From sequence record OR437326.1: a stretch of 64,000 bases of DNA. One strand, given 5' to 3'. The DNA comes from Escherichia phage iGC_PHA_EC001. The notes beneath the pieces were generated by a model. It saw only the letters and a list, made by a program, of their open reading frames with translations, was not told where the DNA came from and searched no databases. How positions within the stretch are numbered: position 1 is the first letter of the stretch; each line of letters starts with the position of its first letter. A program made the translations under genes and the position numbers. Positions 24,323 to 62,120 of the stretch are shown here, in pieces.

Positions 24323-24329
24323 ACTTCAC

Positions 24330-25277: not shown

Positions 25278-25950
25278 GTGCCAGTGCCTCCTCATAGGAA
25301 ATTCGGATTTTCCCATTTTTAATATCCTCTAAAGATGCTTTATATTCTTCCCAGTTAATCCCGATAGCAGCTTCTTTCTCTTCTTTTGTCAGATTAGCAA
25401 AAGGCATAGGGTTGTTTCCAAAAACATCGTCTGGGTGGATATAAGCCATGATACGAAGTGGACAAGGTGTTGCCTGAATACCATGATTCAAACCAGCAGC
25501 TTGCAAACGGTGTCCCCATTCAGCATCTTCAAAACCATAGCCGTGAGTGTAAGGACGGAAATAACCCATCTTCTCAACAACGGCACGAGAATACATTGCA
25601 AATTGACACATTGCAAGTTCCCAGAGAATAACTTCTCCTTTGCTTCCAACAACTTTATCTTTGAAATACTCCGGCATACCAAAGAAATCCCATCCTCCAG
25701 AGACAGCTTGATCTACAAAGTATGTTTCCCATCCCTCCATGACTGGGTAGCAATCGTCGTCAAAAATAAACCAATAATCATAACCTTCTTCATAAAACTG
25801 GTGCATAAGTTCATTCCTGGCATAAGCTACACCTTTACGATCTGGATCGTTGAATACTCGAAAATCTGCACGTGGATCTGTTACAAGGTAGTCTTTAAGT
25901 GGACGGACACCTACAGTGATAACACCCACTCCAATTTTAATATTTTCCAT
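25267..25950 (-). CDS. Glycosyltransferase-like protein (GT-A/DxD type)
   Basis: GVAYARNELM and FDDDCYP acidic motif; YGFEDAEWGHR. Confidence 0.35.
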   Translation of the reverse strand: MENIKIGVGVITVGVRPLKDYLVTDPRADFRVFNDPDRKGVAYARNELMHQFYEEGYDYWFIFDDDCYPVMEGWETYFVDQAVSGGWDFFGMPEYFKDKVVGSKGEVILWELAMCQFAMYSRAVVEKMGYFRPYTHGYGFEDAEWGHRLQAAGLNHGIQATPCPLRIMAYIHPDDVFGNNPMPFANLTKEEKEAAIGINWEEYKASLEDIKNGKIRISYEEALAHVK

Positions 25951-25958
25951 TTTCTCTC

Positions 25959-26522
25959 CTAAATAGTTTTACTGTGATCATGACAGTGTAATAAATGATG
26001 TATAGACCGTTGAGGATTTGTTTGACCTAATCTGTAAATGTGAAACAGATACATTCCCCGCATCAATCCTAACCTCTTTCCTTTTTCATGTAAAGTGCGA
26101 GAGAAAATTAAGTCGAATTGGATAGATTTTTCTTCGAAAGGAATTTCATTCCACAATGATTTTCTAAAAAGCAAGAAGAAACCTGCCAGAGGTGTTCCGA
26201 AAGGAACTTCTTCAACACTCACTTTATGATATTCTCTTGCAATCTTAGCATATTCTATATGGTTTAGAATATCTGGATCATCATTAATTTGGTTAGAGAA
26301 AAGCTGATAACCACTGCCTAACCTGTTACAAGTTGCACCTATTACATCAAAAGGCGGGTTTGACATAACAAGCTCTTCAAGCATAGATGGTTGATCAGGT
26401 AGGAGGAACATTGTATCGGTATCTCTTAAACACACCCAACTATCATCTGGAAGAACGGCAATGGCTTCATTGATAGCCTTGCCGATATTTCCTGTCAGAT
26501 AGGGAGTAATATAATAAATCAT
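25959..26522 (-). CDS. Glycosyltransferase-like protein (tentative)
   Basis: CLRDTDTMFL acidic D-x-D-like motif; fourth member of the contiguous cluster. Confidence 0.25.
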   Translation of the reverse strand: MIYYITPYLTGNIGKAINEAIAVLPDDSWVCLRDTDTMFLLPDQPSMLEELVMSNPPFDVIGATCNRLGSGYQLFSNQINDDPDILNHIEYAKIAREYHKVSVEEVPFGTPLAGFFLLFRKSLWNEIPFEEKSIQFDLIFSRTLHEKGKRLGLMRGMYLFHIYRLGQTNPQRSIHHLLHCHDHSKTI

Positions 26523-27224: not shown

Positions 27225-27746
27225 TTAACTCCCCTTTGGTAGATAGAAACCATGCACTTTATCTCGATAAACAAGACGCATATCACGTTCCCAGTGTGTC
27301 CTTATATTCCGTTTCTTGAAGTATAGAGCACCTTTAGTAACATCTAAAACAGACCGCAATTCAGGAAAATGTTTCTCTAAATAAAGTAAACGCTCCGCTA
27401 TTGCTTTTGCTTCCTGCCACTTATCTTTCTCTGTTACGTTAAAAGTTTTCGCATATGAGAATTGTCCTTTCTGGAACAAGACTCCTCTGACTGTGTTAGG
27501 GAAGTAGGTATCATTTCTTCTGTTGATTACCACATTCCCAACGGCATTCATTCCTTTTTTACCCAGACCGCGACCTTCTGCGTAAATTGCACAAGCTAAT
27601 AGAATTTTATCATTATATTGCTTTGTACATTTGTGAACTACTTTAGCGGTTTTTACGTTTGCAGCTTCGGCTTTCGCCACAACAGGTGTAAATGTAAAAG
27701 CAGTTAAGGATAGTAACGCAACTGTTACAAAGTTTTTTATCAGCAA
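27225..27746 (-). CDS. Cell-wall hydrolase, SleB/Hydrolase_2-like, with signal peptide
   Basis: N-terminal LLSLTAFTFTPVVAKA; AIYAEGRGLGKKGMNAVGNVVINRRND..FPNTVRGVLFQKGQFS matches the SleB-type motif; TTG start 7 nt after AAGGAGG. Confidence 0.55.
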   Translation of the reverse strand: MLIKNFVTVALLSLTAFTFTPVVAKAEAANVKTAKVVHKCTKQYNDKILLACAIYAEGRGLGKKGMNAVGNVVINRRNDTYFPNTVRGVLFQKGQFSYAKTFNVTEKDKWQEAKAIAERLLYLEKHFPELRSVLDVTKGALYFKKRNIRTHWERDMRLVYRDKVHGFYLPKGS

Positions 27747-27845: not shown

Positions 27846-28448
27846 TTATGGACATTCATACCATTCTTTTTTACCACCGAAGGCCATCACCACATCACAA
27901 ATATCCAGACCAGCTTTACCTACACCATATGCTTTCAGCTTCCATTCCCCATCTTCACGAACCAAGGAAGCCACGTGGCAGATTGTGTTGCCAGCTACTT
28001 CAGGAGCCAGGAAGTCAAAATCCAGAATTTCCACATTGCGCTCGGAGTCGAAGATTTTAAGCATACCTTCAGAAGCATGACCAAAACGTTTCAGACCTGT
28101 ATCATCATCAATGGTCAGAACAAAGGCAATCTCTTGTGCATCAGGAGAGATTTTAGCCAGAGTAATATCAATCTGCTCCATGCTGCCAGTTCCATCACGA
28201 ACATCGTCACCAGCGAAGGTAGAACGTTCAGGATCAAACTTGTTAGCATAGCAAACCAGATGACGTGCAGACAGCATTTCAGGATTACCAGCGGCATTGT
28301 GACGACAAACCAGTGCACTTACATCCAGATCCAGTTTAGAATCAGATTTCCAAGAGAATTCCAGGCGCAGTTCTTTCAGAGCCGGAGCAACTTTCTTCAG
28401 GGAAATTTTTTCGCTAGAGCCTTTTTTCAGGGAAATTTTATCAGTCAT
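27846..28448 (-). CDS. terD: TerD-family protein
   Basis: ISLKKGSSEKISLKK, DLDVSALVC and GEWKLKAYGVGKAGLDICDV match the TerD fold (E. coli TerD SLSKGGNVSLSK / DLDASAFLL / GEWKFRAVGQGYAGGLASVC). Confidence 0.8.
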   Translation of the reverse strand: MTDKISLKKGSSEKISLKKVAPALKELRLEFSWKSDSKLDLDVSALVCRHNAAGNPEMLSARHLVCYANKFDPERSTFAGDDVRDGTGSMEQIDITLAKISPDAQEIAFVLTIDDDTGLKRFGHASEGMLKIFDSERNVEILDFDFLAPEVAGNTICHVASLVREDGEWKLKAYGVGKAGLDICDVVMAFGGKKEWYECP

Positions 28449-28463
28449 CTTTTGTCTCCTCTA

Positions 28464-28733
28464 TTATTTAAGTGTAATACCAGTTACAGTCAATTCTACT
28501 TCCAAAAGCTTAGATGTGTTTTGGATTGATACTAATTGTGCATGATGGTTTAGTTCTACAGCAGAATAATCATTTTCCCCATCATCTACTTTTAAATAAA
28601 CAATGATTTCACTAAGGTCTAAACCATTTTCGTCAAATGCATTTTCATAGACGAAAGTATCTCCTACATCCAAATCTTTAATGGTAAGGCATCGTTTATT
28701 TACTTTTTGCTCATCAATTTCGAAGTTTAACAC
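28464..28733 (-). CDS. Hypothetical small protein (paralog of 29755..30033)
   Basis: Shares L-x-I-x-DLDVG-x-TF-x-Y..A..E-x-GLD and a C-terminal VEL-x-VT-x-ITLK motif with its paralog. Confidence 0.35.
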   Translation of the reverse strand: MLNFEIDEQKVNKRCLTIKDLDVGDTFVYENAFDENGLDLSEIIVYLKVDDGENDYSAVELNHHAQLVSIQNTSKLLEVELTVTGITLK

Positions 28734-28962
28734 TTCTTCCTCCTAATGTTATCTCCGGTTTGTATATACGAAGAATTATAGCATTTTCATTTTCTTTGTC
28801 AACCCATTCTTCATAATCGGGCCATACATGAATCTCTACTCTACTTACAATATCTTCCATTCGCACAGTCCCAATGAAATACTCTTTGAGACTGCGCATA
28901 ATGAAAGCTTCTCTCTCGCGCCAATAATTTTCTATGACTTGAGAGGCAAGCTCGTCGATCAT
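28714..28962 (-). CDS. Hypothetical protein
   Basis: 82-aa ORF overlapping both neighbours by a few codons. Confidence 0.3.
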   Translation of the reverse strand: MIDELASQVIENYWREREAFIMRSLKEYFIGTVRMEDIVSRVEIHVWPDYEEWVDKENENAIILRIYKPEITLGGRSVKLRN

Positions 28963-29753
28963 TTTTTAGCACCCACTTTAACAACCCACTCTCCGAACTC
29001 TTCAGATAAGAGTTTGTCATAAAGCTCTGAATCTGTCAAGTCTAAATCTTTAATGCCAATAAAACCAACATTATCATAAGCATTTGCCAGTTCTTTCAGG
29101 AAGCCAAACTTCTCATTACCAACGCCAACCATGAACCAATAAATAGGTTTATTCTTATTCTCTTCGATAAGACGACGAACAGCACTAGGATCACCATTCT
29201 CACCATCCGTCTGGAAGAATACAACACTAGGGGTAACGTCAGCACCTGGTTCAGATACAGCTACAACTTTTTCACGCTCTACAGACACTGTTTCAGTTTT
29301 ACCAAGCAGACGATTAAAGAAGCCTTTCTTTGGAGCCTCCTCTTGTACCACTTGTTTAGTGGTAATATATTTAGTAACAGTGCCAAAATACTCATCGTAG
29401 ATATCCGCCATTACAGGGGCGTAATTTGTTCCACCTCCGATACGAACATTACGCATACATTTACCAACATAGTCATCGTAAACATCTGCTGTTGCTGGAG
29501 TAAGCTCTTGGGAACTCGTATTGAAGGCCCACATATCAATTTGTTGATTATCGTCGAACAGCATACCAAAAGGAAGCAGTTTACCTACAAAATCACTCAC
29601 TACCCCACTAGAATATAGACCATGCATACTACCAGAAATATCTAGAGCACATGCTACACGAAGAACAATCTTACCTTCATTCAGGTTCTTATTCTTTTTC
29701 AGAGAGAAAGCAAGGTTTTCTTGACGTTTTTTCAGGCTGATTTTCTCGGACAT
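28959..29753 (-). CDS. von Willebrand factor A domain protein, TerF/TerY-like
   Basis: MIDAS motif ALDISGSM; N-terminal EKISLKK shared with the TerD gene; 264 aa. Confidence 0.65.
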   Translation of the reverse strand: MSEKISLKKRQENLAFSLKKNKNLNEGKIVLRVACALDISGSMHGLYSSGVVSDFVGKLLPFGMLFDDNQQIDMWAFNTSSQELTPATADVYDDYVGKCMRNVRIGGGTNYAPVMADIYDEYFGTVTKYITTKQVVQEEAPKKGFFNRLLGKTETVSVEREKVVAVSEPGADVTPSVVFFQTDGENGDPSAVRRLIEENKNKPIYWFMVGVGNEKFGFLKELANAYDNVGFIGIKDLDLTDSELYDKLLSEEFGEWVVKVGAKK

Positions 29754-29754
29754 A

Positions 29755-30033
29755 TTATTTCTCCTTTTTAAGTGTAATATTGGTAACTTCTAAATCTACT
29801 TCCACCATATTTGTATCTGGTGGGATGCAATGAGTATAGCCTCGTTGTGCTAGTGATCCATTAATACAAATCGCACTGTTTGTGGAATTTTTAATGAACA
29901 CCAAGTTACGGTAGGTATCCAACCCTGCGTCTTCATAGGCATCATAATACATGAATGTTGCCCCTACGTCAAGATCTTCGAAAGCAATAGGTAAATCTTG
30001 ACTTTTTTCTTCTTGAATATTGAATCTAAACAC
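29755..30033 (-). CDS. Hypothetical small protein (paralog of 28464..28733)
   Basis: Start placed at GTG 30033 (GAGGAGG 5 nt upstream) to match the paralog's length; the listed 30099 start overlaps the upstream gene by 74 nt. Confidence 0.35.
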   Translation of the reverse strand: MFRFNIQEEKSQDLPIAFEDLDVGATFMYYDAYEDAGLDTYRNLVFIKNSTNSAICINGSLAQRGYTHCIPPDTNMVEVDLEVTNITLKKEK

Positions 30034-30589
30034 GCATACCTCCTCTACCAATTTTGAAGCCCAAATCGTAAGCTTCCTTAGTGATCTTTTGTAACTCACT
30101 TATAGGAAGTGTTACAAGAGGATCATCTTCTTCAATTTCCATCTTGTCATCTTCTGTTTCAATGAGAGTATTATGCACTTTGTGATAAGGGTTGTCAACA
30201 CGTTTAAACTTATTCTTTTCTGTGCTGAAAAAACAATCTGGATCTTCTTCACCATCACCCCAACCTTGGTTAGGATCTCCGTCAGATTGTTCTGTAGGGA
30301 TTTCACCTGTAAAGTACTCTTCCAGCACCATAGCGATACCGTCCCTTGGATTTGAGGAATGCATCAAATCACAAACCTTACTCCAATCCATAGCCCATTC
30401 AAATCGTTCACGAACGCCGTTTTCATCCTCCTTTCCAGAGAAAACACAACCATAACTATCATAGTTGCCATACATCTCTTCAATAACAACACCGTCCTTC
30501 AAAAGAAAAAGATAACAAGGTGATCCGTCGAAAGAAGTAGAAAGGGCAGCTTTGCCCGATTCTTTGCACAAAAAGCTAAAACAACCCAT
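30026..30589 (-). CDS. Hypothetical acidic protein
   Basis: 187-aa ORF in operon. Confidence 0.3.
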   Translation of the reverse strand: MGCFSFLCKESGKAALSTSFDGSPCYLFLLKDGVVIEEMYGNYDSYGCVFSGKEDENGVRERFEWAMDWSKVCDLMHSSNPRDGIAMVLEEYFTGEIPTEQSDGDPNQGWGDGEEDPDCFFSTEKNKFKRVDNPYHKVHNTLIETEDDKMEIEEDDPLVTLPISELQKITKEAYDLGFKIGRGGMRV

Positions 30590-30792
30590 TACAAACCCTC
30601 CTTCAGATTATCAAGAGCTATAGTGGTTTCACAAGAGTCTCCATAAGTTTTATGATGTTCCAGAAAAGCTTCGGGTCCACCCCAGTCATTATCTTGCGTA
30701 TTCCAGCCATCAATAAAAGCATCTTCAATGATTGTGATCAGTTCTTGTCGGGTTAACTGGATAATATTAGGATCGTTATCGTAGTTAAACAT
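30589..30792 (-). CDS. Hypothetical small protein
   Basis: 67-aa ORF, start overlaps downstream stop. Confidence 0.3.
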   Translation of the reverse strand: MFNYDNDPNIIQLTRQELITIIEDAFIDGWNTQDNDWGGPEAFLEHHKTYGDSCETTIALDNLKEGL

Positions 30793-30957
30793 CTTCTTCC
30801 TCCTCTAAAATATGGAACCCGTAATTACAATAATCCTGAAAGGTTTCGTGCGCAAGATCTTCTATATCCTCTTGAGACATATCATCTTCAATTTCGATAT
30901 CCACAACCTCATTGCATCCACACCAAGCAGTTTCAATATTCACTCGTAATATTTTCA

Positions 30958-31158
30958 TTACTCCTCCTCCTCCTCATTGAAGTCAATATCTGCAATGAGT
31001 TCGAATTTACGGAAGTTACGACAACCTTCATAAATATAACAATCACGACAAACTGCTAGAACACTTGGGGGATATATACCTCCCATCGGTGCGAATCGTT
31101 TTTCGTCATCATAACGGACACCAATGTCTTCATCAATTATATAGATACGGATTCTCAT
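30958..31158 (-). CDS. Hypothetical small Cys-containing protein
   Basis: 66 aa with CRDCYIYEGC and poly-Glu C-terminus. Confidence 0.3.
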   Translation of the reverse strand: MRIRIYIIDEDIGVRYDDEKRFAPMGGIYPPSVLAVCRDCYIYEGCRNFRKFELIADIDFNEEEEE

Positions 31159-32267
31159 TTACCAAGCCCTCGTTTCACAGCAGCTACCATCCCGTCTTCC
31201 AGAGATTGAACTTCATTAATATAATCAACACGAGCAGCACGGGCTTCCGTATTGATGCGGTTAGTTTCTTCCAACATCTTAACCAAGTTTTCCTGATCGT
31301 GACGCAGAGTTTCAATATCCAACACTTGACGGTTAGCCAGTGCTGCTGCTTCGATCTGATTCTGTGTGGCAAGATCGCTACCCAGTTTAATTGCTAGGTT
31401 AAATTCATCAAGAACGTTATTCTGCGTCTCTGCTGCTTTCATTTGACGTAAGCTCTCGATATACATTGAGAAGTTAGCAGAGTAAGCAGGAATAACATTA
31501 TTTACTATGTTACGCGCAGATCGCATTAAGCTTGCAGAAACTTTTTGCATACCTTGTACACGCGGTCCCATTTGGACACACAGTAGGCGCAATGCTTTTA
31601 AATCTGCAATACGAATCTCCAGAAGATCCAAAGTATCTCGGATCACTTGTCGCTGTTCTACTGCATCTTCTGGAAGAGCAGCCAAAGCTTGTTCTTCTTT
31701 TTCATAGGTTGCTGTTAGAAGCTGCATATCTCGGTTCAAACTTGCAGCATATTGTCCAATAGCTTGATGTAGCTTTTCAAGATATACCAAGGAATCTTCT
31801 TCTTTGCGAATATCCATTTGAAGGTTCTTTACCAACTCTTCAATACGGTTATTAACATTATCAAACTCCCCAAACAGGTCTTCTTTCATACCCATAACTT
31901 TTTTAATGAGTTTAGTAATACCCTTGCTTTGTTTAATAGAGTTTGGATCAAGTTGTTTTGCCTGTTTAATCAAAGCTGTGAGTCGTTCACTCATCTGATC
32001 GCCTTGATTACTACGTTGATGTTTTAATACCTCGGCATTCAAGGAGCGCAAGGTTGTTCCTGCCTCTGCCCCAATCTCTTCGATCTCTTGTCGGGTCATA
32101 GAAGGCAAAACTGGAACTTCTTGCGGTGCCGCTGGTGCATAAACAGGACTGGCATCTAACACGCTTGGAGCGAATACAGATTTACTTGCATCTGTTGTTG
32201 CAGCAAATACGCTCATTTCAGGCTTCTTCTGACCACCAGTAGCTGCTTTTAAAAATGGACTTGTCAT
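31155..32267 (-). CDS. TelA-like toxic-anion-resistance family protein (tentative)
   Basis: 370 aa, all-helical/coiled-coil character; QVLDIETLRHDQENLVKMLEE resembles the TelA C-terminal region as I recall it; sits inside the Ter gene context. Confidence 0.4.
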   Translation of the reverse strand: MTSPFLKAATGGQKKPEMSVFAATTDASKSVFAPSVLDASPVYAPAAPQEVPVLPSMTRQEIEEIGAEAGTTLRSLNAEVLKHQRSNQGDQMSERLTALIKQAKQLDPNSIKQSKGITKLIKKVMGMKEDLFGEFDNVNNRIEELVKNLQMDIRKEEDSLVYLEKLHQAIGQYAASLNRDMQLLTATYEKEEQALAALPEDAVEQRQVIRDTLDLLEIRIADLKALRLLCVQMGPRVQGMQKVSASLMRSARNIVNNVIPAYSANFSMYIESLRQMKAAETQNNVLDEFNLAIKLGSDLATQNQIEAAALANRQVLDIETLRHDQENLVKMLEETNRINTEARAARVDYINEVQSLEDGMVAAVKRGLGK

Positions 32268-32854
32268 TCTTCATTCTCCTCTTCTGCATCTCTTATATAT
32301 GGTGAAACACCGTACTCTTTAGCTACTTTAACCCAATCGTCCCATTTATACAACCATAATTTTCCTTCGGTCCCTTCTTTATCTGATTTCAACCACATAT
32401 TAGGTTGCTTACCTGGGTACATGCGATTAGGTTTACGATTATAACCTCTAACACATCTTGTCGCAAACCTATCTACCAGAACAAGAACATATTTATACTC
32501 GTGGTTCAACGGCTCTTTGGAAGTGGCTTTAGGATTAGCCCCTAATTCTGCTGCCAGTTTTTGCCAATGAGCACCGTGCCTACTAAACTTACCCATACAA
32601 CCATCAATAGCATGAGCAATTTCGTGCTTCATTGTATCCACGATCATATCTCTTGTGGAGTTCTTATGCAAGTGCCAATTTACAACAACAATTTTATCTC
32701 GGTAGTTGCACCAACCGAAAGAGTTATTCACTTTGTTTCTAACACAAGCTTTATATCCTGCTTCACGTAACATGTTGTAGTAAACAGGAAAATCTTCTTT
32801 TATTTCCTGCATCACTTCCCACCACAAGAGTTGCAAGTCTCTCTCGGTATGCAT
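32264..32854 (-). CDS. SprT-like zinc metallopeptidase domain protein
   Basis: HEIAHAI (HExxH) followed by HGAHWQKL, the SprT-like arrangement. Confidence 0.5.
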   Translation of the reverse strand: MHTERDLQLLWWEVMQEIKEDFPVYYNMLREAGYKACVRNKVNNSFGWCNYRDKIVVVNWHLHKNSTRDMIVDTMKHEIAHAIDGCMGKFSRHGAHWQKLAAELGANPKATSKEPLNHEYKYVLVLVDRFATRCVRGYNRKPNRMYPGKQPNMWLKSDKEGTEGKLWLYKWDDWVKVAKEYGVSPYIRDAEEENEE

Positions 32855-32857
32855 AAC

Positions 32858-33451
32858 TTACACCTTAAAAGCGAAATGCGTGGTCGTGGCTTCAAAATCA
32901 GGGCCAGATAAACTTGCACTGAAATCTGAAATATTTGTAATTAAAAAGCTTTTATGCATACCTAACACAGCCACGCTTTCAATATCTTCTACTAACATTT
33001 CAATCATGTTAGAAACATGGCTGAACGTATAGTTTTGTTTTTTGATGGTGTAGAAAGAAAGACTCCCACCTGCTGTATAAGATACCTCTTCAAAATCTTT
33101 AATCGTATATTGTGTGCCATCAGTAAAGAAAATGGTAGCTTTATTAGTAGCACGTTTCTTGTTTTTTGGTCCTTTTTTACGTTTACTGCGAGTAGGCAAA
33201 CCGTTTGGAAATACTGTAGCTACAAATTCTTCAGGAGAAACCTCCTTACCGAAATCATAACCGTAAGAAACAGCGTCTATAAACTCGTCGTCTTCATTTT
33301 TAAAATAATGGAAATAGGGCCAATTTGAGAGATTATCGAGCATCTTATGCTCATCCACAGCAGAGAACGTATCCCTCAAAGCGCGTGTGATTTGCAAAGC
33401 ATTAGGCAAACTTTTAACACCTGTAATGGAAGTACGAATAGAAATTGTCAT
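32858..33451 (-). CDS. Hypothetical protein
   Basis: 197-aa ORF in operon. Confidence 0.3.
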   Translation of the reverse strand: MTISIRTSITGVKSLPNALQITRALRDTFSAVDEHKMLDNLSNWPYFHYFKNEDDEFIDAVSYGYDFGKEVSPEEFVATVFPNGLPTRSKRKKGPKNKKRATNKATIFFTDGTQYTIKDFEEVSYTAGGSLSFYTIKKQNYTFSHVSNMIEMLVEDIESVAVLGMHKSFLITNISDFSASLSGPDFEATTTHFAFKV

Positions 33452-33465
33452 TGTTTTTCTCCTTA

Positions 33466-33903
33466 TTAACGTCGCTTGCTACGAGATGAACTCTTTTTAC
33501 TTAAAGGGCTATTGTAAGATTTGCGAGTTGTATAGCTACTATTTGTTTTAAAAGTTTGTCTCGGCTTTTCATAAGTTTTTATCTCTTGTTTAGGCTTACC
33601 ATAAAAATTAGTTTTCGGTTTAGGTGTATTATAATGCTTATTAATAATCGTTCTGTTATCGTTATAATCCCCACTGTTACGATTACTACCACCACTCATC
33701 ATATGCCCTAACAACATACCTGTAGCAAACTCACCAACACCGCTACTACTAGAACCGCCACCATTGTTGATAATAGTTGTATCTCCGTCAGATCCTTGTT
33801 GAGCGTATTGTTGAGGAGGTTGTTGGTATTGTGCAGGATTTGTTTCATCCTCGCAAGCTGTTAAAAAGATACAACCAATTAAAATCAGGGCTAGTTTTTT
33901 CAT
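33466..33903 (-). CDS. Lipoprotein (Gln/Pro-rich, Gly/Ser-rich, basic C-terminus)
   Basis: Start set at ATG 33903 (GAGGA upstream): MKKLALILIGCIFLTAC has a lipobox L-T-A-C. Confidence 0.45.
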   Translation of the reverse strand: MKKLALILIGCIFLTACEDETNPAQYQQPPQQYAQQGSDGDTTIINNGGGSSSSGVGEFATGMLLGHMMSGGSNRNSGDYNDNRTIINKHYNTPKPKTNFYGKPKQEIKTYEKPRQTFKTNSSYTTRKSYNSPLSKKSSSRSKRR

Positions 33904-34090
33904 ATTTGCTTTCCTCATTTTGACTATTAATACATCTGTGTTTGAAATCTCCAGAGAAGCAATAAAGTTGCTCTCCATCTCGGTATAAACTCACTTTACT
34001 GCCGTTGATTACGCTTGTCAATACAAAAATTACAACAAACAACCCTATTGCAAAACAAATATTTTCAAACACAATCAACAAGTATTTCAT
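33845..34090 (-). CDS. Small membrane protein overlapping the lipoprotein gene start
   Basis: N-terminal hydrophobic LLIVFENICFAIGLFVVIFVLTSVI; 3' end overlaps the lipoprotein start by about 60 nt in another frame. Confidence 0.3.
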   Translation of the reverse strand: MKYLLIVFENICFAIGLFVVIFVLTSVINGSKVSLYRDGEQLYCFSGDFKHRCINSQNEESKYEKTSPDFNWLYLFNSLRG

Positions 34091-34437
34091 TTTAAAAATA
34101 CCTCATCATCAGTTTCATTATCCCAGAAGAACAAATCCCAACCATTCGGATCATTCCATTTGGCTGCTGGAGAAGTCCATATTTGTTCGATATCAATATT
34201 CAAAACTTCACCGTTTCGTTTTGAAACAGCTTTAGTTAATTCCCAACGAGATACAGGCTCTACTTCCCCTGAACCACTCCCACAACAAGCTACCACGTTA
34301 GGAGGCAAATTAATTGGATCTTTGGTCACGATCATAACGCTTACCCCAGGGTAAACTTTTGAAAGATAATCTAAAACGTAATCCACATCACCAGATAAAT
34401 CCCAAACAAGTTCTTGAATTTCATCAAAATTATTCAT
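34087..34437 (-). CDS. Hypothetical acidic protein
   Basis: 116-aa ORF; ATGA overlap with downstream gene. Confidence 0.3.
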   Translation of the reverse strand: MNNFDEIQELVWDLSGDVDYVLDYLSKVYPGVSVMIVTKDPINLPPNVVACCGSGSGEVEPVSRWELTKAVSKRNGEVLNIDIEQIWTSPAAKWNDPNGWDLFFWDNETDDEVFLK

Positions 34438-34479
34438 AAGTCTCTCCTATAAAATAGCCTCCCGAAGGAGGCTCATCTA

Positions 34480-35454
34480 TTAAACAGCAGCTTCTTCTTT
34501 TTCAGGGAAGATAAAGCTTGCAATAACACCAAGAGCTAATGTGCCTAGAACAATCATCAGACTTACGTTAGGGGAAATATCATGCGGGAGGAATGACCAC
34601 TTGGCATGAAGTGTTTCACCGAACGGGTGATACATAAGTTTAGCACCGACAAATACCAGAACCACAGCAACAGCTTTCTCTAAGTGAACCAGATATTTCA
34701 CAGCCACACTTAACACAAAGAAAAGTGCACGTAAACCAAGAACAGCCATCAGCATTGCAGAATAAACTAGCAGAGGTTCTTGTGTCACACCGATCACAGC
34801 CGGAACTGAATCAAAAGAGAAGACAATATCTGTAAGCTCAATAACAAACACACAAAGAAGAGCAGGAGTTGCATATTTAATACCATTCTTAATGGTGATG
34901 AACTTTTCACCATCCAGTGCATTGTGCACAGGCAGAACTTTACCTACTAAACGAACAGCCCAATGCTTAGAGTAATCAATATCCTCTTCTTCGTCACCAC
35001 CTTTGATGATAGCCACGGCAGACCAAGCTACAATCAAACCGAACAACACTTGGACCGACCAATGAAGGTTAAACAAAGCGGTCCCTGCTGCAACAAAAAT
35101 ACCTCGGAAGACAATGGCTCCTGCAATTCCCCAAAGTAAAATCTTATGTTGGAGATGTGTGCTCTTAATTCCAAAGCTTGCAAAAATTGCCATGAACACC
35201 ATCAGGTTATCTACAGAAAGACTCTTTTCCAACACATAGCCACTTAGGAAAAGCGCGGCAAACTCTTTACCATGTTCTACCCAAATGAATGCGTAATATC
35301 CTAAAGCTAAAGCAATCCAAAAAACAGACCAAAGCAAAGCAGATTTAATTCCAATTTCTTTATTCTCTTTATGACCAAAGAAATCAATACCAATAGACAA
35401 TGCTAAAATACCAACTAAAACAACTACATCAATAATGGGGAAACCGAGTTGCAT
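34480..35454 (-). CDS. terC: TerC-family integral membrane protein
   Basis: Multiple TM helices; EKSLSVDNLMVF signature; 324 aa. Confidence 0.8.
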   Translation of the reverse strand: MQLGFPIIDVVVLVGILALSIGIDFFGHKENKEIGIKSALLWSVFWIALALGYYAFIWVEHGKEFAALFLSGYVLEKSLSVDNLMVFMAIFASFGIKSTHLQHKILLWGIAGAIVFRGIFVAAGTALFNLHWSVQVLFGLIVAWSAVAIIKGGDEEEDIDYSKHWAVRLVGKVLPVHNALDGEKFITIKNGIKYATPALLCVFVIELTDIVFSFDSVPAVIGVTQEPLLVYSAMLMAVLGLRALFFVLSVAVKYLVHLEKAVAVVLVFVGAKLMYHPFGETLHAKWSFLPHDISPNVSLMIVLGTLALGVIASFIFPEKEEAAV

Positions 35455-35455
35455 T

Positions 35456-35530
35456 CTTTTCTCCTCTCTTTGCGGGGAACTATTCCCCGCTTCATGTGAT
35501 ATATCTTACTCTTTTTAAGAACTATGTCAA
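35456..35530 (-). promoter_or_regulatory. Promoter plus 5' stem-loop cassette upstream of terC
   Basis: On - strand: TTGACA, spacer, TAAGAT, then hairpin GCGGGGAA-tag-TTCCCCGC, then AGAGAGGAG and ATG; same architecture as the early-region cassettes. Confidence 0.5.
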
Positions 35531-35533
35531 CAC

Positions 35534-35755
35534 TTATTTTGTTGAATGAGAGGAAAAGATTCCTCGTAATACAGCCAGAATAAACGAAACACAAACCACG
35601 GTCCAGAAGGTTACTGGGACAGTGATATCTGCATGACCCATAACTTCAGCAACATAGTTGTAAGCCAGCAACAGTAACCAAGCTGGAATCAAACTAAGCA
35701 TAAAAGCAATAACAAAAAAGCTTACCACTGCAACAATACCTGCAAAAACACCCAT
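35534..35755 (-). CDS. Small two-helix membrane protein
   Basis: 73 aa, two hydrophobic segments. Confidence 0.35.
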   Translation of the reverse strand: MGVFAGIVAVVSFFVIAFMLSLIPAWLLLLAYNYVAEVMGHADITVPVTFWTVVCVSFILAVLRGIFSSHSTK

Positions 35756-35767
35756 ACTAATCTCCTC

Positions 35768-36241
35768 TTAAAGTTTATAAATAGTCACATCGTGACCTGT
35801 TTTTACTAAAGTTTCTTCAATCATCACTTGGATGATAGCCCAATTACCTCCAGCATATCCAGCGCCAATCATAGGTAAGCCGATCTTACATTTTTGGTCA
35901 CGGAGAAGCAAATCATTAGCCATAGCTATTAGTGCATCATAAAGTGCATCATAGTCCAACTGACGACCTTTAGCATTGTATCCGTAACGGTATTGCCCGT
36001 ATAGATTATATACCAAAGGGTCTGATTGTTCGTCTGGCACCCCTAAACTAAAACAACCTAGTTTACTTTGATCACCAGCCATTGTGTCTAAGTCTGCTGC
36101 ATATGCGTAAGGAAATGCTCGTTTGATTTGTGGGGCAATACCTGCCCCCATATTACACATACAATTGCAACAATGAGCAATAACAGTTACTTCACCTGCT
36201 TTAGCGGCATCAATAAGATTACCTGTTTTAATTTTAAGCAT
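35768..36241 (-). CDS. Macro-domain protein (ADP-ribose binding/processing)
   Basis: Start at ATG 36241 with AAGGAG 8 nt upstream; VIAHCCNCMCNMGAGIAPQI and GLPMIGAGYAGGNWAIIQ match macro-domain glycine-rich loops. Confidence 0.7.
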   Translation of the reverse strand: MLKIKTGNLIDAAKAGEVTVIAHCCNCMCNMGAGIAPQIKRAFPYAYAADLDTMAGDQSKLGCFSLGVPDEQSDPLVYNLYGQYRYGYNAKGRQLDYDALYDALIAMANDLLLRDQKCKIGLPMIGAGYAGGNWAIIQVMIEETLVKTGHDVTIYKL

Positions 36242-36254
36242 TTTTAGCTCCTTA

Positions 36255-37082
36255 TTACAGAATGTGTTGTTTTGTGTAACGATCCAAGAATTCAAAGTTT
36301 TCAGCATACTTTGAAATTCGGTTGTAACCTTCTCCCAAGCATCCAAAGAAAAGTTGCTCTACATAGTAATGTGGCAATTGGCTAAGAATGATTTTGAAGT
36401 CTTCATGATTTTGGCCCATAAGATACTTAATAGGACGAACAAGACACTGTGCATCACGTTCTTCATTAATCATTTTAACAAACGCTTCTGGTGTATTAAT
36501 GTAGTTAAAATTCAGTTTAGCTTCGGTATCTGCTTGATTACCTTCGTATTTTGCAAAATACAGGAAGTAAACATCATTTTTAACTTGATTTTCATCAAGG
36601 ATCTCAATCAGTTTGTCTTCATGCGTTCCAGTGATATTTACATCATCAATGAATACAAGCTTCTTATCACCCCAGAATTCTTTGTTGCAGTAGAATGTAT
36701 CCCCATCAATAAGTTTCTTACGACTAGCTTTATCCAAGAAACCATAATCGTTGATATAGCTAACTTTACGATGAATAATGTCCAGTTCTGCTGAACGACC
36801 TTGATCATATTGTGATTGCAACATATTAAAGTAATTAATAAAATGATCTGTCATCATTGTTGCAGCATTATGCACATGGTTATAAGGAGAAGGAATGATA
36901 ACAAATTGTTCCCCAATATGTTTCATTGCCACTTGAGCAAAAAACTGAAGTGCCAATTCTTTACCCATACGACGCGCAGCTTGGTTACTACCAAATTTCA
37001 ATTTTGAATAATCTTGGATATCAAAAGTAGCAGTTTCCAGGTCATCAAATTTATTTGCAAAAATTTGAGTTTGATTACGCAT
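36255..37082 (-). CDS. Phosphoribosyltransferase-like protein (type I PRTase fold)
   Basis: KKLVFIDDVNITGTHE fits the PRPP-binding motif (hydrophobic run, DD, then T-G-T); ATG overlaps the HAD gene stop. Confidence 0.5.
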   Translation of the reverse strand: MRNQTQIFANKFDDLETATFDIQDYSKLKFGSNQAARRMGKELALQFFAQVAMKHIGEQFVIIPSPYNHVHNAATMMTDHFINYFNMLQSQYDQGRSAELDIIHRKVSYINDYGFLDKASRKKLIDGDTFYCNKEFWGDKKLVFIDDVNITGTHEDKLIEILDENQVKNDVYFLYFAKYEGNQADTEAKLNFNYINTPEAFVKMINEERDAQCLVRPIKYLMGQNHEDFKIILSQLPHYYVEQLFFGCLGEGYNRISKYAENFEFLDRYTKQHIL

Positions 37083-37731
37083 TTACAATTTCTCCTCTTT
37101 TAAGTTTCTCTAGTAAGTCGTTAGGGTTCTTAATATGACAGAAGTTAAATCCTAAGTCAACACATTTTCCATCATATTCTTCACTATCGCCTACGTGCAA
37201 CACTTCGTGCCCTAACAGAGGGATCGGAGAATACGTGAGCGTGCGAGCAAAGAATCGCGGATCTGGTTTACAAAGTAAAGCTTCATCCGAGAAATGGGTG
37301 AACTCAAAACAATTCCAACTATCAAACTTACAAGCACGACGCAGGATATCCCCTGATATGAAGTTGGTATTGCTCTTAATACTCAAATCATAACGCCCCG
37401 AAAGATACAGCAAGTACATCGGCAGATCCACGGCTACGTGTGGTGGAAACTTAAGGAACCACTGTTCACACTCGAAACGAAGCTTTGCAGACTTCCAAGG
37501 CGTTATCCCAAGTTCAGAACCAAGTCTTTCCCAGGCATATGCTGCACACTCGGCTTTGCCTTGAAGTGCTGCATTATCCAGTTCCTTTTTGATCTTTTTA
37601 TAAGCTGCTCTTGCTTCCACTTCCGTAATATCTCCATATTTTGCGATAGTCCAGGCTCGCATGTCTGCATAATTGGAGTTTGCTGTGATCAGTGTGTTCC
37701 ATACATCAAAAGAGATATGTTTAATAGTCAT
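37075..37731 (-). CDS. HAD-superfamily hydrolase (phosphatase)
   Basis: N-terminal ISFDVWNTLI (HAD motif I DxDx[TV]); 218 aa. Confidence 0.55.
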   Translation of the reverse strand: MTIKHISFDVWNTLITANSNYADMRAWTIAKYGDITEVEARAAYKKIKKELDNAALQGKAECAAYAWERLGSELGITPWKSAKLRFECEQWFLKFPPHVAVDLPMYLLYLSGRYDLSIKSNTNFISGDILRRACKFDSWNCFEFTHFSDEALLCKPDPRFFARTLTYSPIPLLGHEVLHVGDSEEYDGKCVDLGFNFCHIKNPNDLLEKLKRGEIVNA

Positions 37732-37732
37732 A

Positions 37733-38338
37733 TTAAGCCCACCATGCGTCTAAGTTAAGATTACTGTCCACTACCACTTGTTCTATGTGGTAGCCTTTTA
37801 TCTGTATCCCACTGTTCAAGAGCATATCATACGCTTCATTGAAACGCAACTTATCTTCTGCGGAATATAAGCGAGCATTATAAAATCGGTAATCAACTTC
37901 TTCAGCATTAGAAGAAATACGGAAGAAGTTTGTTTCTACTTCGGGATCACTTGCTGAAGTCTTAATGTGAACTTCTCCGTAATTTTCTTTACTTAGATCC
38001 ATGAAAAGAACACAGGCAACATGTTTAAACATTCGTTCCAGTTTGTAACGAACAACATTGAAACCTGCATTCTCAAGTTTTTCTACACACTGCAACATTA
38101 AAGTAGTGTCGAGATCGCTTTGATACTTTGTTAACATACGATCACGTTGAGACTTTGTATCCCGATGTAAATCAATTGTTGTGCATTTGGCACCAATAAT
38201 CTTAGCTGCTTTCATCAACTCTTCAGAACTAACGTTAGATAAAGTAAGATGAAAATGGGCTTTCCACACTTTTTTAGCAGGGACACCAAAAGATTTATCC
38301 CCACTATTCGGCATGTTGACTACTACACTATGTTGCAT
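37733..38338 (-). CDS. Hypothetical protein, first gene of the macro/PRTase/HAD operon
   Basis: 201 aa; contains HFHLTL and VHIKTS, only weakly reminiscent of the two H-x-T/S-x motifs of 2H phosphoesterases. Confidence 0.35.
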   Translation of the reverse strand: MQHSVVVNMPNSGDKSFGVPAKKVWKAHFHLTLSNVSSEELMKAAKIIGAKCTTIDLHRDTKSQRDRMLTKYQSDLDTTLMLQCVEKLENAGFNVVRYKLERMFKHVACVLFMDLSKENYGEVHIKTSASDPEVETNFFRISSNAEEVDYRFYNARLYSAEDKLRFNEAYDMLLNSGIQIKGYHIEQVVVDSNLNLDAWWA

Positions 38339-62041: not shown

Positions 62042-62047
62042 TAAACC

Positions 62048-62102: not shown

Positions 62103-62120
62103 ATATAAAGAGGAAACAAA

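What the first reader, a model, noticed from the sequence alone, without database searches (positions are those of the whole stretch)
33466..34090. Small membrane-protein gene overlapping the start of a lipoprotein gene (spanin-like arrangement, atypical sizes)
An 81-aa protein with an N-terminal transmembrane helix overlaps, in a different frame, the start of a 145-aa lipoprotein with a lipobox and a Gln/Pro-rich region. The overlapped membrane-protein/lipoprotein layout recalls i-spanin/o-spanin pairs, but the relative sizes are reversed and the pair sits in the Ter-type block rather than beside the cell-wall hydrolase, so a superinfection-exclusion or envelope role is equally possible.
Basis: inference. 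Interest (0 to 1): 0.35.

Follow-up and report, generated by a model that had tools for sequence, protein, structure and literature searches.

The report
Phage membrane–lipoprotein pair, not spanins
Two small overlapping phage genes, one for an inner-membrane protein and one for a lipoprotein, are real and conserved, but they are not the phage's cell-bursting "spanin" pair, which lies elsewhere in the genome; they are uncharacterised envelope proteins inside a stress-response (Ter) gene block.

Summary
On the minus strand, an 81-aa single-pass membrane protein (33845-34090) overlaps by 59 nt, out of frame, a 145-aa lipoprotein (33466-33903; lipobox LTAC, Gln/Pro-rich linker). The window is a Phapecoctavirus (phAPEC8-like E. 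coli myovirus), and both genes are already annotated as hypothetical proteins.

The spanin reading fails:
- The genus has a curated spanin pair (130-aa i-spanin, 114-aa o-spanin) just upstream of the terminase gene, outside this window.
- Orthologous lipoproteins carry Cys-Asp-Asp, the inner-membrane retention signal. This window has Cys-Glu-Asp.
- Sister lineages keep the membrane protein but lack the lipoprotein.
- The lipoprotein family (at least 720 clusters at 50% identity, PHROG "unknown function") occurs alone in accessory regions of unrelated phages, never beside lysis genes in the loci inspected.
- The small protein is modelled as helix, β-hairpin and short helix, with no coiled coil.

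Best reading: two non-lytic envelope accessory proteins. One is a TerC-linked bitopic protein. The other is an inner-membrane-anchored, mostly disordered lipoprotein with one conserved GxxxG helix and a polybasic tail. They probably act in envelope conditioning or exclusion of competing phages, but that function is inferred, not shown. Interest is low to moderate.

The parts
33845..34090 (-). Gene for an 81-aa bitopic membrane protein (phrog_17591). Modelled as TM helix at about residues 2-28, periplasmic β-hairpin with conserved Cys44/Cys53, and a C-terminal amphipathic extension (residues 67-81) found only in the 80/81-aa form of Phapecoctavirus and its close relatives.
   Evidence: ORF. PHROG match E 3.6e-40. 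131 phage records. 21 clusters with invariant E9, C12, G16, L24, T25, C44, S46, C53. AF2 secondary structure at mean pLDDT 64. Annotated CDS in relatives.
33466..33903 (-). Gene for a 145-aa lipoprotein precursor (phrog_21570 / phrog_32479). The stop codon is 33466-33468.
   Evidence: ORF. PHROG matches E 3.6e-62 and 2.2e-66. 64 phage records at 95% identity or more. Family of 62 and 720 clusters. Annotated CDS in relatives.
33853..33903 (-). Signal peptide and lipobox (MKKLALILIGCIFLTAC). The lipidated Cys17 codon is 33853-33855. It is followed by Glu+2 and Asp+3.
   Evidence: Sequence. Cys is invariant across 33 aligned homologues. The +2/+3 residues are Asp-Asp in 32 of 60 clusters with a detected lipobox, including nearly all close homologues from 140-155-kb phage contigs. 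Asp or Glu at +2 blocks entry into LolCDE.
33688..33741 (-). Conserved core of the lipoprotein (residues 55-72, GVGEFATGMLLGHMMSGG). It is a short GxxxG helix and the only ordered element predicted in the mature protein.
   Evidence: G62 is invariant, and G66 and H67 nearly so, in alignment A4. AF2 models helix 55-70 with block pLDDT about 77; the rest is disordered. Mean hydropathy is 0.64, too low for a transmembrane helix.
33469..33687 (-). Polybasic Ser/Thr/Tyr/Lys/Arg-rich disordered tail (residues 73-145, 19 K+R against 4 D+E) ending in KRR.
   Evidence: Composition. Across the family the tail has a median net charge of +10 (at least +5 in 99%), the linker before the helix is never net positive, and C-termini are RRR/RR-type.
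33845..33903 (-). 59-nt out-of-frame overlap. The last 19 codons and the stop of the 81-aa gene overlap the first 19 full codons, and part of the 20th, of the lipoprotein gene.
   Evidence: Coordinates. In phi92 and KP13-26 the equivalent overlap is only 14 nt, because the small protein there is 68 aa.
33909..33916 (-). Shine-Dalgarno sequence GAGGAAAG, 5 nt upstream of the lipoprotein ATG and inside the 81-aa gene.
   Evidence: Read directly from the sequence.
34087..34090 (-). ATGA junction. The stop codon of the upstream 116-aa gene overlaps the start codon of the 81-aa gene, which suggests translational coupling.
   Evidence: Coordinates; sequence.
34480..35454 (-). TerC-family integral membrane protein. 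It is the conserved upstream neighbour of the small TM gene (context, not part of the pair).
   Evidence: Pfam TerC E 3e-40. The same neighbour is seen in phi92, phiWec179, KP13-26 and metagenomic relatives.
31155..32267 (-). TelA-family protein, the downstream boundary of the local block (context).
   Evidence: Pfam TelA E 3.2e-33.

Best explanation
These are two non-lytic envelope accessory proteins of a phAPEC8-like phage. They are co-transcribed with the phage's Ter-type block and replication genes. They are not the two halves of an obligate machine.

(1) The 81-aa protein is a bitopic inner-membrane protein. Its N terminus is cytoplasmic. It has one TM helix with an invariant intramembrane Glu and Cys, and a small periplasmic domain with a conserved Cys pair. 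It is found only in Stephanstirmvirinae-type phages and always just downstream of their TerC gene, so it is most likely a TerC-associated membrane subunit.

[quoted passage not shown] Its mature part is an acidic Gln/Pro linker, one conserved GxxxG helix (a likely protein- or membrane-docking element) and a long polybasic disordered tail.

It belongs to a large, phage-borne family that other phages carry alone in early or accessory regions. The most likely job of both proteins is to condition or guard the envelope from the periplasmic side before lysis, for example by excluding competing phages. That is the role proposed for phage-encoded Ter systems.

Shown here: the gene structure, the conservation, the sorting signals, the absence of lysis linkage, and the existence of separate spanins. 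Inferred: topology, inner-membrane retention, TerC association, and the exclusion or envelope-protection function.
For: Identity and context:
- The window is 99% identical to phapecoctaviruses.
- The pair lies in a minus-strand block with HAD-like hydrolase, PRTase_3, macro/phosphatase, TerC, SprT-like, TelA, vWA-TerF and TerD genes, next to replication and nucleotide-metabolism genes.

Separate spanins:
- A 130-aa i-spanin (TM helix plus helical periplasmic domain) and a 114-aa o-spanin (lipobox MMTG-C, Ser+2), overlapping by 110 nt, lie upstream of terL in EF1-1.
- They are listed for phAPEC8 and phi92 in the spanin database.
- The i-spanin is present in 133 phage records, 64 of them at 95% identity or more, the same number as carry the lipoprotein at that identity.

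Small TM protein tied to TerC:
- It is in 131 records, against 132 records with a TerC at least 60% identical.
- It lies directly downstream of TerC, or one small gene further, in phi92, KP13-26, phiWec179 and metagenomic contigs.
- It is retained, including its C-terminal extension, where the lipoprotein is absent.

Lipoprotein is independent:
- Homologues occur alone next to RdgC/methylase, RNR/ThyX, HTH regulator plus tailspike, Acb2/Tad1-like and small early genes in unrelated phage contigs. None of these loci has TerC, a homologue of the small TM protein, or an endolysin or holin recognisable by Pfam domain.
- The family has 720 clusters at 50% identity, all unnamed or 'hypothetical'.

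Sorting:
- 32 of 60 clusters with a detected lipobox have Cys-Asp-Asp, including nearly all close homologues from 140-155-kb phage contigs. Phapecoctaviruses have Cys-Glu-Asp.
- Both Asp and Glu at +2, and hydrophilic residues at +3, blocked entry of RcsF into LolCDE.

Structure: AF2 gives a TM helix, β-hairpin and short helix for the small protein, and a single helix at 55-70 in an otherwise disordered lipoprotein.

Functional frame: Iyer et al. 2021 propose that phage-borne Ter systems serve in competition with superinfecting phages.
Against: - No experiment or homology links either protein to exclusion, to TerC or to any function. Pfam, NCBIfam, PADLOC, PDB sequence search and a Foldseek search of predicted viral structures (small protein only) all gave nothing significant.
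- Conserved synteny with TerC within one phage subfamily may only reflect shared ancestry.
- TerC genes of other phage groups (GAP52, Arno162) have no such neighbours.
- Inner-membrane retention for Cys-Glu-Asp is extrapolated from one substrate (RcsF) in one study.
- Both AF2 models are of low confidence (mean pLDDT 64 and 55).
- Expression timing is inferred from gene neighbourhood only.
Confidence: 0.45

Rival explanations
1. The two proteins work together as an obligate heteromeric accessory module of the phage TerC complex. The lipoprotein's GxxxG helix or tail docks on the periplasmic hairpin or C-terminal helix of the 81-aa protein, and the overlapping genes ensure co-expression.
For: The adjacent, overlapping gene order is conserved in three diverged genera (Phapecoctavirus, Justusliebigvirus, Klebsiella phages) at 40-53% identity. 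Both are predicted to sit at the periplasmic face of the inner membrane.
Against: Several lineages (phiWec179 and the P0067 and P0075 contigs) keep TerC and the 80-aa protein but have no lipoprotein gene at the locus. The lipoprotein family occurs in many other phages with neither TerC nor a homologue of the small TM protein nearby.
Confidence: 0.2
2. One or both proteins regulate lysis timing, as a holin, antiholin or RI-like sensor, rather than disrupting the outer membrane.
For: The 81-aa protein is small and has an N-terminal TM helix and a charged periplasmic domain with two Cys, loosely like T4 RI or single-TM holins (my own knowledge of those proteins). No holin is annotated in the Phapecoctavirus records inspected, and the proteins next to the hydrolase gene in this window show no hydrophobic segment. 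A paper on phage BME3, which by its phi92 gp180 homologue is a phi92-like relative, likewise found no TM proteins beside the endolysin.
Against: The gene sits between TerC and TelA among replication-arm genes, not near the endolysin or spanins. A better holin-like candidate (80 aa, two TM segments, charged C-terminus) exists at 1290-1532(+). No PHROG lysis annotation matches.
Confidence: 0.1
3. The pair is a second, atypical two-component spanin, with the 81-aa protein as a short i-spanin and the 145-aa lipoprotein as a long o-spanin.
For: A type II membrane protein gene overlaps, out of frame, a lipoprotein gene with a Pro/Gln-rich linker. The spanin database holds i-spanins with periplasmic domains as short as 45-55 residues. 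One distant lipoprotein homologue gives a weak PHROG 'Rz-like spanin' match over its signal peptide and Pro-rich linker only (E 3.7e-4).
Against: - Canonical spanins are present in the same genomes.
- Orthologues carry the Asp+2/Asp+3 inner-membrane retention signal, and Glu+2/Asp+3 is also unfavourable for LolCDE.
- The mature lipoprotein has no Cys for the intermolecular disulfides that Kongari et al. consider near-universal in two-component spanins.
- No coiled coil or long helix is modelled in the 81-aa protein.
- The lipoprotein is dispensable in sister lineages and stands alone in other phages.
Confidence: 0.04
4. One or both ORFs are non-coding chance ORFs in AT-rich phage DNA.
For: Both are short, have no Pfam domain, and the lipoprotein is low in complexity.
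Against: Both are conserved as proteins across genera at 40-50% identity, with invariant residues and conserved signal, lipobox, helix and terminal RRR features. The lipoprotein family has 298 clusters at E<=1e-10.
Confidence: 0.01

Closest known systems
Two-component spanins (λ Rz/Rz1; phAPEC8 gp121 / phAPEC8_00146, overlapped architecture)
   Same: A gene for an N-terminally anchored membrane protein overlaps, out of frame, the start of a gene for a lipoprotein with a Pro/Gln-rich unstructured linker.
   Different: - The genus has its own curated spanin pair elsewhere.
- The lipoprotein orthologues have an inner-membrane retention signal rather than an outer-membrane signal.
- The mature lipoprotein has no Cys.
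- The small protein has no helical or coiled-coil periplasmic domain.
- The two genes are separable in evolution, and none of the inspected loci shows a lysis-gene neighbourhood.
Phage superinfection-exclusion envelope proteins (T5 Llp and lambdoid Cor lipoproteins; TP-J34 Ltp; T4 Imm and Sp; HK97 gp15). Recalled from my own knowledge, not tested here.
   Same: Small phage-encoded membrane proteins or lipoproteins, expressed outside the lysis cassette, often in accessory or early regions, and acting at the envelope. Ltp is a lipoprotein on the outer face of the cytoplasmic membrane.
   Different: There is no sequence or structural similarity to any of them. Llp and Cor are folded outer-membrane lipoproteins that block FhuA, whereas this protein is mostly disordered and probably stays in the inner membrane. 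No exclusion phenotype is known.
Glycine-zipper envelope lipoproteins of enterobacteria (SlyB/Pcp, OsmB) and DUF1190 (YgiB) / DUF2076 proteins
   Same: A lipobox, a low-complexity linker, and a short Gly-rich (GxxxG) hydrophobic helix. There are marginal sequence matches to SlyB (PDB 7ojf, E 0.09), to DUF1190 (E 0.94) and to DUF2076 (E 0.18-0.68).
   Different: All matches are below significance and driven by composition. This family has a single helix with a conserved His (G-x3-G-H) and a polybasic tail ending in RRR, which those proteins lack. SlyB is an outer-membrane protein.
Ter (tellurite-resistance-type) stress/defence system: TerC, TelA, TerD, vWA-TerF, PRTase, HAD
   Same: The pair is embedded between TerC and TelA in a fairly complete phage-borne Ter block, and the small TM protein co-occurs with this TerC in essentially all relatives.
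   Different: Neither protein is a described Ter component. TerC genes of other phage groups lack such neighbours, and the lipoprotein family is found mostly without Ter genes.
PHROG families phrog_17591 (small TM protein) and phrog_21570 / phrog_32479 (lipoprotein)
   Same: Direct, highly significant membership (E 3.6e-40, 3.6e-62 and 2.2e-66).
   Different: These families carry no functional annotation ('unknown function'), so membership names the proteins but does not explain them.

Membership tests
Two-component spanin: i-spanin | Type II (N-in, C-out) inner-membrane protein with an N-terminal TM domain | tested here: met
   A single hydrophobic segment at residues 5-23 (KD 2.66) and an AF2 helix at 2-28. 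The orientation is inferred from Lys2 and the conserved Cys44/Cys53 pair after the helix.
Two-component spanin: i-spanin | Periplasmic domain dominated by α-helices or coiled coil, able to reach the o-spanin | tested here: not met
   AF2 models a β-hairpin at 32-46, a disordered stretch at 47-71 and a 9-residue helix at 72-80 (low confidence). By contrast, the genus's real i-spanin has a coiled-coil prediction over residues 42-106. Caveat: more than 120 database i-spanins lack coiled-coil predictions.
Two-component spanin: o-spanin | Lipoprotein signal with lipobox | tested here: met
   MKKLALILIGCIFLTA-C fits [LVI][ASTVI][GAS]C. The Cys is invariant in 33 homologues.
Two-component spanin: o-spanin | Sorted to the outer membrane (no Lol-avoidance signal) | tested here: not met
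   Nearly all close homologues from 140-155-kb phage contigs have Cys-Asp-Asp, the E. coli Lol-avoidance signal. The window has Cys-Glu-Asp, and Glu at +2 and hydrophilic residues at +3 also blocked LolCDE entry for RcsF. This is a sequence-rule test only; localisation was not measured.
Two-component spanin | Periplasmic Cys residues for intermolecular disulfide bonds | tested here: not met
   The mature lipoprotein has no Cys besides the lipidated one. The small protein has two conserved Cys. Kongari et al. argue for a near-universal role of disulfides.
Two-component spanin | It is the phage's only or needed outer-membrane disruption system, and both components always co-occur | tested here: not met
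   A canonical pair is present in 133 related records and is curated for phAPEC8 and phi92. The lipoprotein is missing in lineages that keep the TM protein, and it occurs alone elsewhere.
Two-component spanin | Complements a λ Rz/Rz1 lysis defect | not testable with these tools
   This needs an experiment.
Unimolecular spanin (T1 gp11 type) | Outer-membrane lipoprotein signal plus a C-terminal transmembrane domain in one chain | tested here: not met
   The only hydrophobic element after the signal peptide is the 18-residue helix at 55-72, with mean hydropathy 0.64. No KD19 window exceeds 1.6, and the helix is followed by a 73-residue polar tail.
Holin / antiholin | Small membrane protein genetically linked to an endolysin or shown to control lysis timing | tested here: inconclusive
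   There is a TM segment, but the gene is 6 kb from the SleB-type hydrolase, lies between TerC and TelA, and has no PHROG lysis annotation. The function itself cannot be tested here.
Known superinfection-exclusion proteins (Llp, Cor, Ltp, Imm, Sp, SieA) | Sequence or structural homology to a characterised exclusion protein | tested here: not met
   No hit in Pfam, NCBIfam, PADLOC or PDB sequences for either protein, and none in the predicted viral structures for the small protein.
Known superinfection-exclusion proteins | Expression reduces infection by the same or other phages | not testable with these tools
   This needs plating and adsorption/injection assays.
Ter system | Homology to a defined Ter component (TerA-F, TerZ, TelA, TerY, PRTase, HAD and so on) | tested here: not met
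   Neither protein has a Pfam match, whereas the neighbours score TerC 3e-40, TelA 3.2e-33, TerD 3.2e-28, vWA-TerF 7.8e-38 and PRTase_3 1.7e-41.
Ter system | Conserved gene-neighbourhood association with Ter genes across unrelated lineages | tested here: inconclusive
   The small TM protein always follows TerC, but only within one phage subfamily. It is absent after TerC in GAP52 and Arno162. The lipoprotein family is mostly not Ter-linked.
Glycine-zipper lipoproteins (SlyB/OsmB; Pfam Gly-zipper families) and DUF1190/DUF2076 | Significant profile match | tested here: not met
   SlyB E 0.09. DUF1190 E 0.94, DUF2076 E 0.18-0.68 and YjbE E 0.031, all far below the curated cut-offs.
PHROG phrog_17591 and phrog_21570 / phrog_32479 | Significant profile match over most of the protein | tested here: met
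   E 3.6e-40 (residues 1-66), 3.6e-62 (residues 1-145) and 2.2e-66 (residues 44-145). Distant homologues hit the same families.

The most novel reading that the evidence does not exclude
The lipoprotein represents a large, unrecognised class of phage envelope effectors (at least 720 clusters at 50% identity). These are lipid-anchored, intrinsically disordered proteins with one conserved G-x3-G-H helix, an always-acidic linker and an always-polybasic tail ending in RRR. On this reading they act at the periplasmic face of the inner membrane, for example by blocking DNA entry of competing phages or docking onto a host membrane complex. In Stephanstirmvirinae the class has been recruited next to TerC together with a dedicated small membrane partner.
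Probability: 0.25. Interest if true: 0.55.

Novelty: new member of a known kind. Interest (0 to 1): 0.25.

Why it matters
In practical terms, this prevents a mis-annotation. A small TM gene overlapping a lipoprotein gene looks like a spanin pair to automated or by-eye annotation, but this phage group's real spanins lie about 58 kb away in the genome.

In biological terms, it flags two pieces of phage dark matter. The first is a small membrane protein that invariably accompanies the phage-borne TerC. The second is a widespread, mostly phage-borne lipoprotein family with a very regular architecture: lipobox, acidic linker, GxxxGH helix and a polybasic tail ending in RRR. No function is known for it.

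If either protein is shown to act in exclusion of rival phages or in envelope protection, that would give an experimental handle on why virulent phages carry Ter-type systems. Phapecoctaviruses are widely used as therapeutic candidates, so knowing what their envelope-active accessory genes do has some applied relevance.

Tried and rejected
1. Spanin identity. Rejected for the reasons given in the membership tests.

2. Domain and family searches.
- Pfam at default and at E<=10, NCBIfam and PADLOC gave nothing significant for either protein.
- The weak DUF6693 hit of the phi92 homologue (21.5 bits against a cut-off of 31) and the DUF1190, DUF2076 and YjbE hits were judged compositional.

3. Solved structures. 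Only signal-peptide matches and a marginal SlyB hit for the lipoprotein, and nothing for the small protein.

4. AlphaFold2 of both proteins. Low confidence, mostly disordered. Foldseek of the small-protein model against viral structures found no match at E<=0.001. The lipoprotein model was not searched, because it is disordered.

5. The lipoprotein's conserved helix as a transmembrane segment, with the basic tail cytoplasmic. The family-wide charge asymmetry suggested this. I rejected it as unlikely because the helix is about 16-18 residues long with mean hydropathy 0.64 and contains Glu and His. It is worth an experimental topology test.

6. Bacterial chromosomal homologues. A scan of 185,579 species genomes confirmed only two loci, both 97-99% identical to the window lipoprotein and therefore presumably phage DNA. 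The named NCBI members are 'hypothetical protein' on roughly 100-kb Citrobacter and Enterobacter contigs.

7. tblastn across genera with the lipoprotein. It is insensitive because of low-complexity masking: phi92 gp180 and P0027 found only close relatives or nothing. Profile searches were needed.

8. RNA elements. No Rfam family anywhere in the window. Promoter-like sites are not enriched over shuffles (18 against 18.1 expected), so the TTGACA-17-TAAAGT site inside the 81-aa gene is not evidence of an internal promoter.

9. The BME3 paper's '81-residue candidate class II holin'. It cannot be equated with this gene. BME3 carries a phi92 gp180 homologue at 98.8% identity, and in phi92-type phages the homologue of this protein is 68 aa.

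10. The Ter review by Anantharaman et al. 2012 could not be read because it is not held.
Full report
**What the window is.** The 5.5 kb around the finding is 98-99.4% identical over its full length to more than 60 phage genomes of about 150 kb. Those with a taxonomy line are in genus Phapecoctavirus (phAPEC8-like E. coli myoviruses, subfamily Stephanstirmvirinae). All genes discussed here are on the minus strand.

**The observation.** The ORF listing gives an 81-aa ORF at 33845..34090(-) and a 170-aa ORF at 33466..33978(-).
- Within the 170-aa ORF, the ATG at 33903 is preceded by GAGGAAAG with a 5-nt spacer.
- That start opens the 145-aa reading MKKLALILIGCIFLTAC|EDETNPAQYQQPPQQYAQQ... It has a basic n-region, a hydrophobic core, the lipobox LTAC and a Gln/Pro-rich stretch.
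- The 81-aa protein has one strongly hydrophobic N-terminal segment.
- The genes overlap by 59 nt (33845-33903), so they are in different frames.
- RefSeq and GenBank records of near-identical phages annotate both CDS as 'hypothetical protein', with the same lengths and overlap.

So is its context statement: the pair lies between TerC (34480-35454) and TelA (31155-32267), about 6 kb from the SleB-type cell-wall hydrolase at 27225-27746.

**Both genes are real.**
- The small protein matches phrog_17591 (E 3.6e-40). The lipoprotein matches phrog_21570 and phrog_32479 (E 3.6e-62 and 2.2e-66). All three families are 'unknown function'.
- tblastn finds the small protein in 131 phage records: 64 at 95% identity or more, 6 at 60-80% and 61 below 60%.
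- A profile search finds 21 clusters for the small protein, on contigs of up to about 155 kb, with E9, C12, G16, L24, T25, C44, S46 and C53 invariant.
- The lipoprotein family has 62 clusters at 90% identity. It has 720 clusters at 50% identity with E<=0.001, and 298 with E<=1e-10.
- In phi92 (gp181 and gp180) and in Klebsiella phage KP13-26 the same order holds: TerC, then the small TM protein (68 aa), then the lipoprotein (196 or 187 aa). There the overlap is 14 nt.

**Why it is not a spanin pair.**

*First, the genus already has one.*
- In EF1-1, a 130-aa protein with an N-terminal TM helix and a helical periplasmic domain overlaps by 110 nt a 114-aa lipoprotein (MRIQRIMQKLILAVCLALPLMMTG-CSSS, Ser at +2). 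The pair lies directly upstream of the large terminase gene.
- These same proteins are listed as the overlapped i- and o-spanins of phAPEC8 (phAPEC8_00145/gp121 and phAPEC8_00146; 62013-62406 and 62296-62641) in the spanin database of Kongari et al. 2018. The phi92 equivalents are listed too.
- The i-spanin is found in 133 phage records, 64 of them at 95% identity or more, the same number as carry the lipoprotein at that identity.
- That locus lies about 58 kb from the pair in EF1-1 coordinates, and so outside the window.

*Second, the sorting signal.*
- Among lipoprotein homologues, 32 of 60 clusters with a detected lipobox have Cys-Asp-Asp. These include nearly all the close homologues from 140-155-kb phage contigs.
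- Asp at +2 followed by certain residues at +3 is the E. coli Lol-avoidance (inner-membrane retention) signal.
- The phapecoctavirus sequences examined (window plus five loci) all have Cys-Glu-Asp. In the LolCDE structural study, S21D, S21E and hydrophilic +3 substitutions of RcsF all abolished or severely impaired entry into LolCDE. Inner-membrane retention is therefore plausible here too, though unproven.
- An o-spanin must be in the outer membrane.

*Third, the two genes are separable.*
- phiWec179 and metagenomic lineages carrying 80-aa homologues (66-71% identical) have TerC, optionally a 116-aa gene, the 80-aa gene, a 200-291-aa gene, SprT-like and TelA, with no lipoprotein gene. A motif scan of those loci finds none.
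- In phiWec179 the DNA that would encode the lipoprotein start has no ATG. The 80-aa reading frame, including its C-terminal extension DFDWWSLLNNLR, is intact.
- Conversely, lipoprotein homologues sit alone in unrelated phage contigs. Their neighbours are RdgC and a DNA methylase; ribonucleotide reductase and ThyX; a Cro-like HTH gene and a P22-type tailspike; an Acb2/Tad1-like gene; or runs of small early genes. None of these loci has TerC, a homologue of the small TM protein, or an endolysin or holin recognisable by Pfam domain.

*Fourth, structure.*
- AlphaFold2 on a 22-sequence alignment models the 81-aa protein as helix 2-28, β-hairpin 32-46, a disordered stretch and a short helix at 72-80, with no long helix or coiled coil (mean pLDDT 64).
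- The mature lipoprotein has no Cys for the intermolecular disulfides that Kongari et al. regard as near-universal.

Size alone is not a strong argument, because database i-spanins can have periplasmic domains of 45-55 residues.

**Anatomy of the lipoprotein family.** Alignment of 33 diverse members, statistics on 191 members and AlphaFold2 give a very regular plan:
- a signal peptide and lipobox Cys;
- a linker that is never net positive (median net charge -3), often Pro/Gln-rich and ending in a V-V-V-Q-like strand;
- a conserved motif, SG-VG(D/E)F-ATGM(L/I)LGHM(M/L)SGG. In the window this is residues 55-72. It is the only element modelled as ordered (helix 55-70);
- a T-T-I-I-N-N-like segment;
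- a Ser/Tyr/Lys/Arg-rich tail with median net charge +10 (at least +5 in 99% of members), most often ending in RRR.

In the window the tail has 19 K+R against 4 D+E. The helix is too short and too polar (mean hydropathy 0.64; it contains Glu and His) to be a transmembrane segment. I read it as a docking or oligomerisation helix with a GxxxG motif.

No member carries a functional name. A scan of one genome per bacterial species confirmed only two loci, both 97-99% identical to the window protein and so presumably phage DNA. The family therefore appears to be essentially phage-borne.

**Context and likely role.** The pair lies in a minus-strand arm that also encodes DNA polymerase, primase/helicase, ribonucleotide reductases and four glycosyltransferases. 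Within that arm it sits in a fairly complete Ter-type block:
- HAD-like hydrolase, PRTase_3, macro/phosphatase, a 73-aa multi-TM protein and TerC;
- then a 116-aa protein, the 81-aa TM protein, the lipoprotein and a 197-aa protein;
- then SprT-like, TelA, vWA-TerF and TerD.

The small TM protein occurs in 131 records, against 132 with a TerC at least 60% identical. It always follows TerC, and it is kept when the lipoprotein is lost. This suggests a TerC-linked role. TerC genes of other phage groups (GAP52, Arno162) have no such neighbour, however, so the link may be lineage-specific.

Iyer et al. 2021 propose that phage-borne Ter systems serve in competition with superinfecting phages. That fits the usual roles of non-lytic phage lipoproteins and small membrane proteins, which I know from the literature rather than from tests here.

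[quoted passage not shown] One is TerC-associated. The other is a member of a widespread phage lipoprotein family. Envelope conditioning or exclusion is the most likely function.
- I am about 0.8 confident that the pair is non-spanin.
- I am about 0.3-0.45 confident in the specific functional reading.

**Comparison with known systems.** The arrangement looks like an overlapped spanin pair but fails the defining features that could be tested. It has no homology to known exclusion proteins, defence systems, Ter components or glycine-zipper lipoproteins; the best match is SlyB at E 0.09. It is a firm member only of PHROG families with no assigned function.

**Verdict.**
- The spanin interpretation is not supported.
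- The genes are already catalogued as hypothetical proteins in more than 100 genomes, so the finding is ordinary from the lysis point of view.
- The modest interest lies in the size and regularity of the uncharacterised lipoprotein family, and in the constant TerC/small-TM pairing.

Noticed in passing
window 27846-38337 (minus strand): A fairly complete phage-borne Ter-type block. It has TerD (27846-28448), vWA-TerF-like (28959-29753), TelA (31155-32267), SprT-like (32264-32854), TerC (34480-35454), a macro/phosphatase (35768-36241), PRTase_3 (about 36254-37081) and a HAD-like hydrolase (about 37074-37730). Pfam E-values run from 1e-4 to 1e-41.
   Followed up: partly
window 27225-27746 (-): An SleB-type cell-wall hydrolase (Pfam Hydrolase_2, E 1.9e-17) with an N-terminal signal- or SAR-like hydrophobic segment (MLIKNFVTVALLSLTAFTFTPVVAKA). 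It lies directly downstream of TerD, and its neighbours have no TM segments, so it is not in a classical lysis cassette.
   Followed up: partly
window 1290-1532 (+): An 80-aa protein with two hydrophobic segments and a charged C-terminus (…RWGRSQSTKEDD), just before the baseplate wedge gene. It is holin-like in form and is annotated only as 'membrane protein' (phrog_1322) in relatives.
   Followed up: no
window 5278-5613 (+): A 111-aa protein with one TM-like segment followed by a heptad-rich helical region, between the tail-fibre assembly and tailspike genes. EF1-1 annotates it as 'lipoprotein' (phrog_15210), but it has no lipobox. Its form is i-spanin-like.
   Followed up: no
window 35534-35755 (-): A 73-aa, very hydrophobic (multi-TM) protein, phrog_16065, immediately upstream of TerC. 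It is conserved at that position in the relatives inspected.
   Followed up: no
window 34456-34473 (-): A perfect GC-rich hairpin, AGCCTCC-TTCG-GGAGGCT, in the 42-nt gap between TerC and the 116-aa gene. It is followed by ATTTTATAGG, so it may be a weak terminator or an RNA-stability element.
   Followed up: no
window 33845-33889 (-) / L007:3196-3243: The C-terminal 13-15 residues of the small protein (DFNWLYLFNSLRG) are an extension found only in the 80/81-aa form. They overprint the lipoprotein's signal-peptide codons. The extension is conserved (DFDWWSLLNNLR) even in lineages with no lipoprotein gene, so it is under selection in its own right.
   Followed up: yes
public records matched: Several GenBank records named as Campylobacter, Acinetobacter, Klebsiella or 'Dompiswa' phages are 98-99% identical to E. 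coli phapecoctaviruses or phi92-like phages. Their host labels look doubtful.
   Followed up: no
window about 23380-26522 (-): Four consecutive glycosyltransferase genes, as annotated in EF1-1, lie between the primase/helicase and the hydrolase region. They may act in DNA or envelope glycosylation.
   Followed up: no
L005:18453-19080 (EF1-1, outside the window): The o-spanin is annotated in EF1-1 with a truncated start (94 aa, MMTGC...). The full ORF with a proper signal peptide is 114 aa (L005:18736-19080), as in the spanin database.
   Followed up: yes
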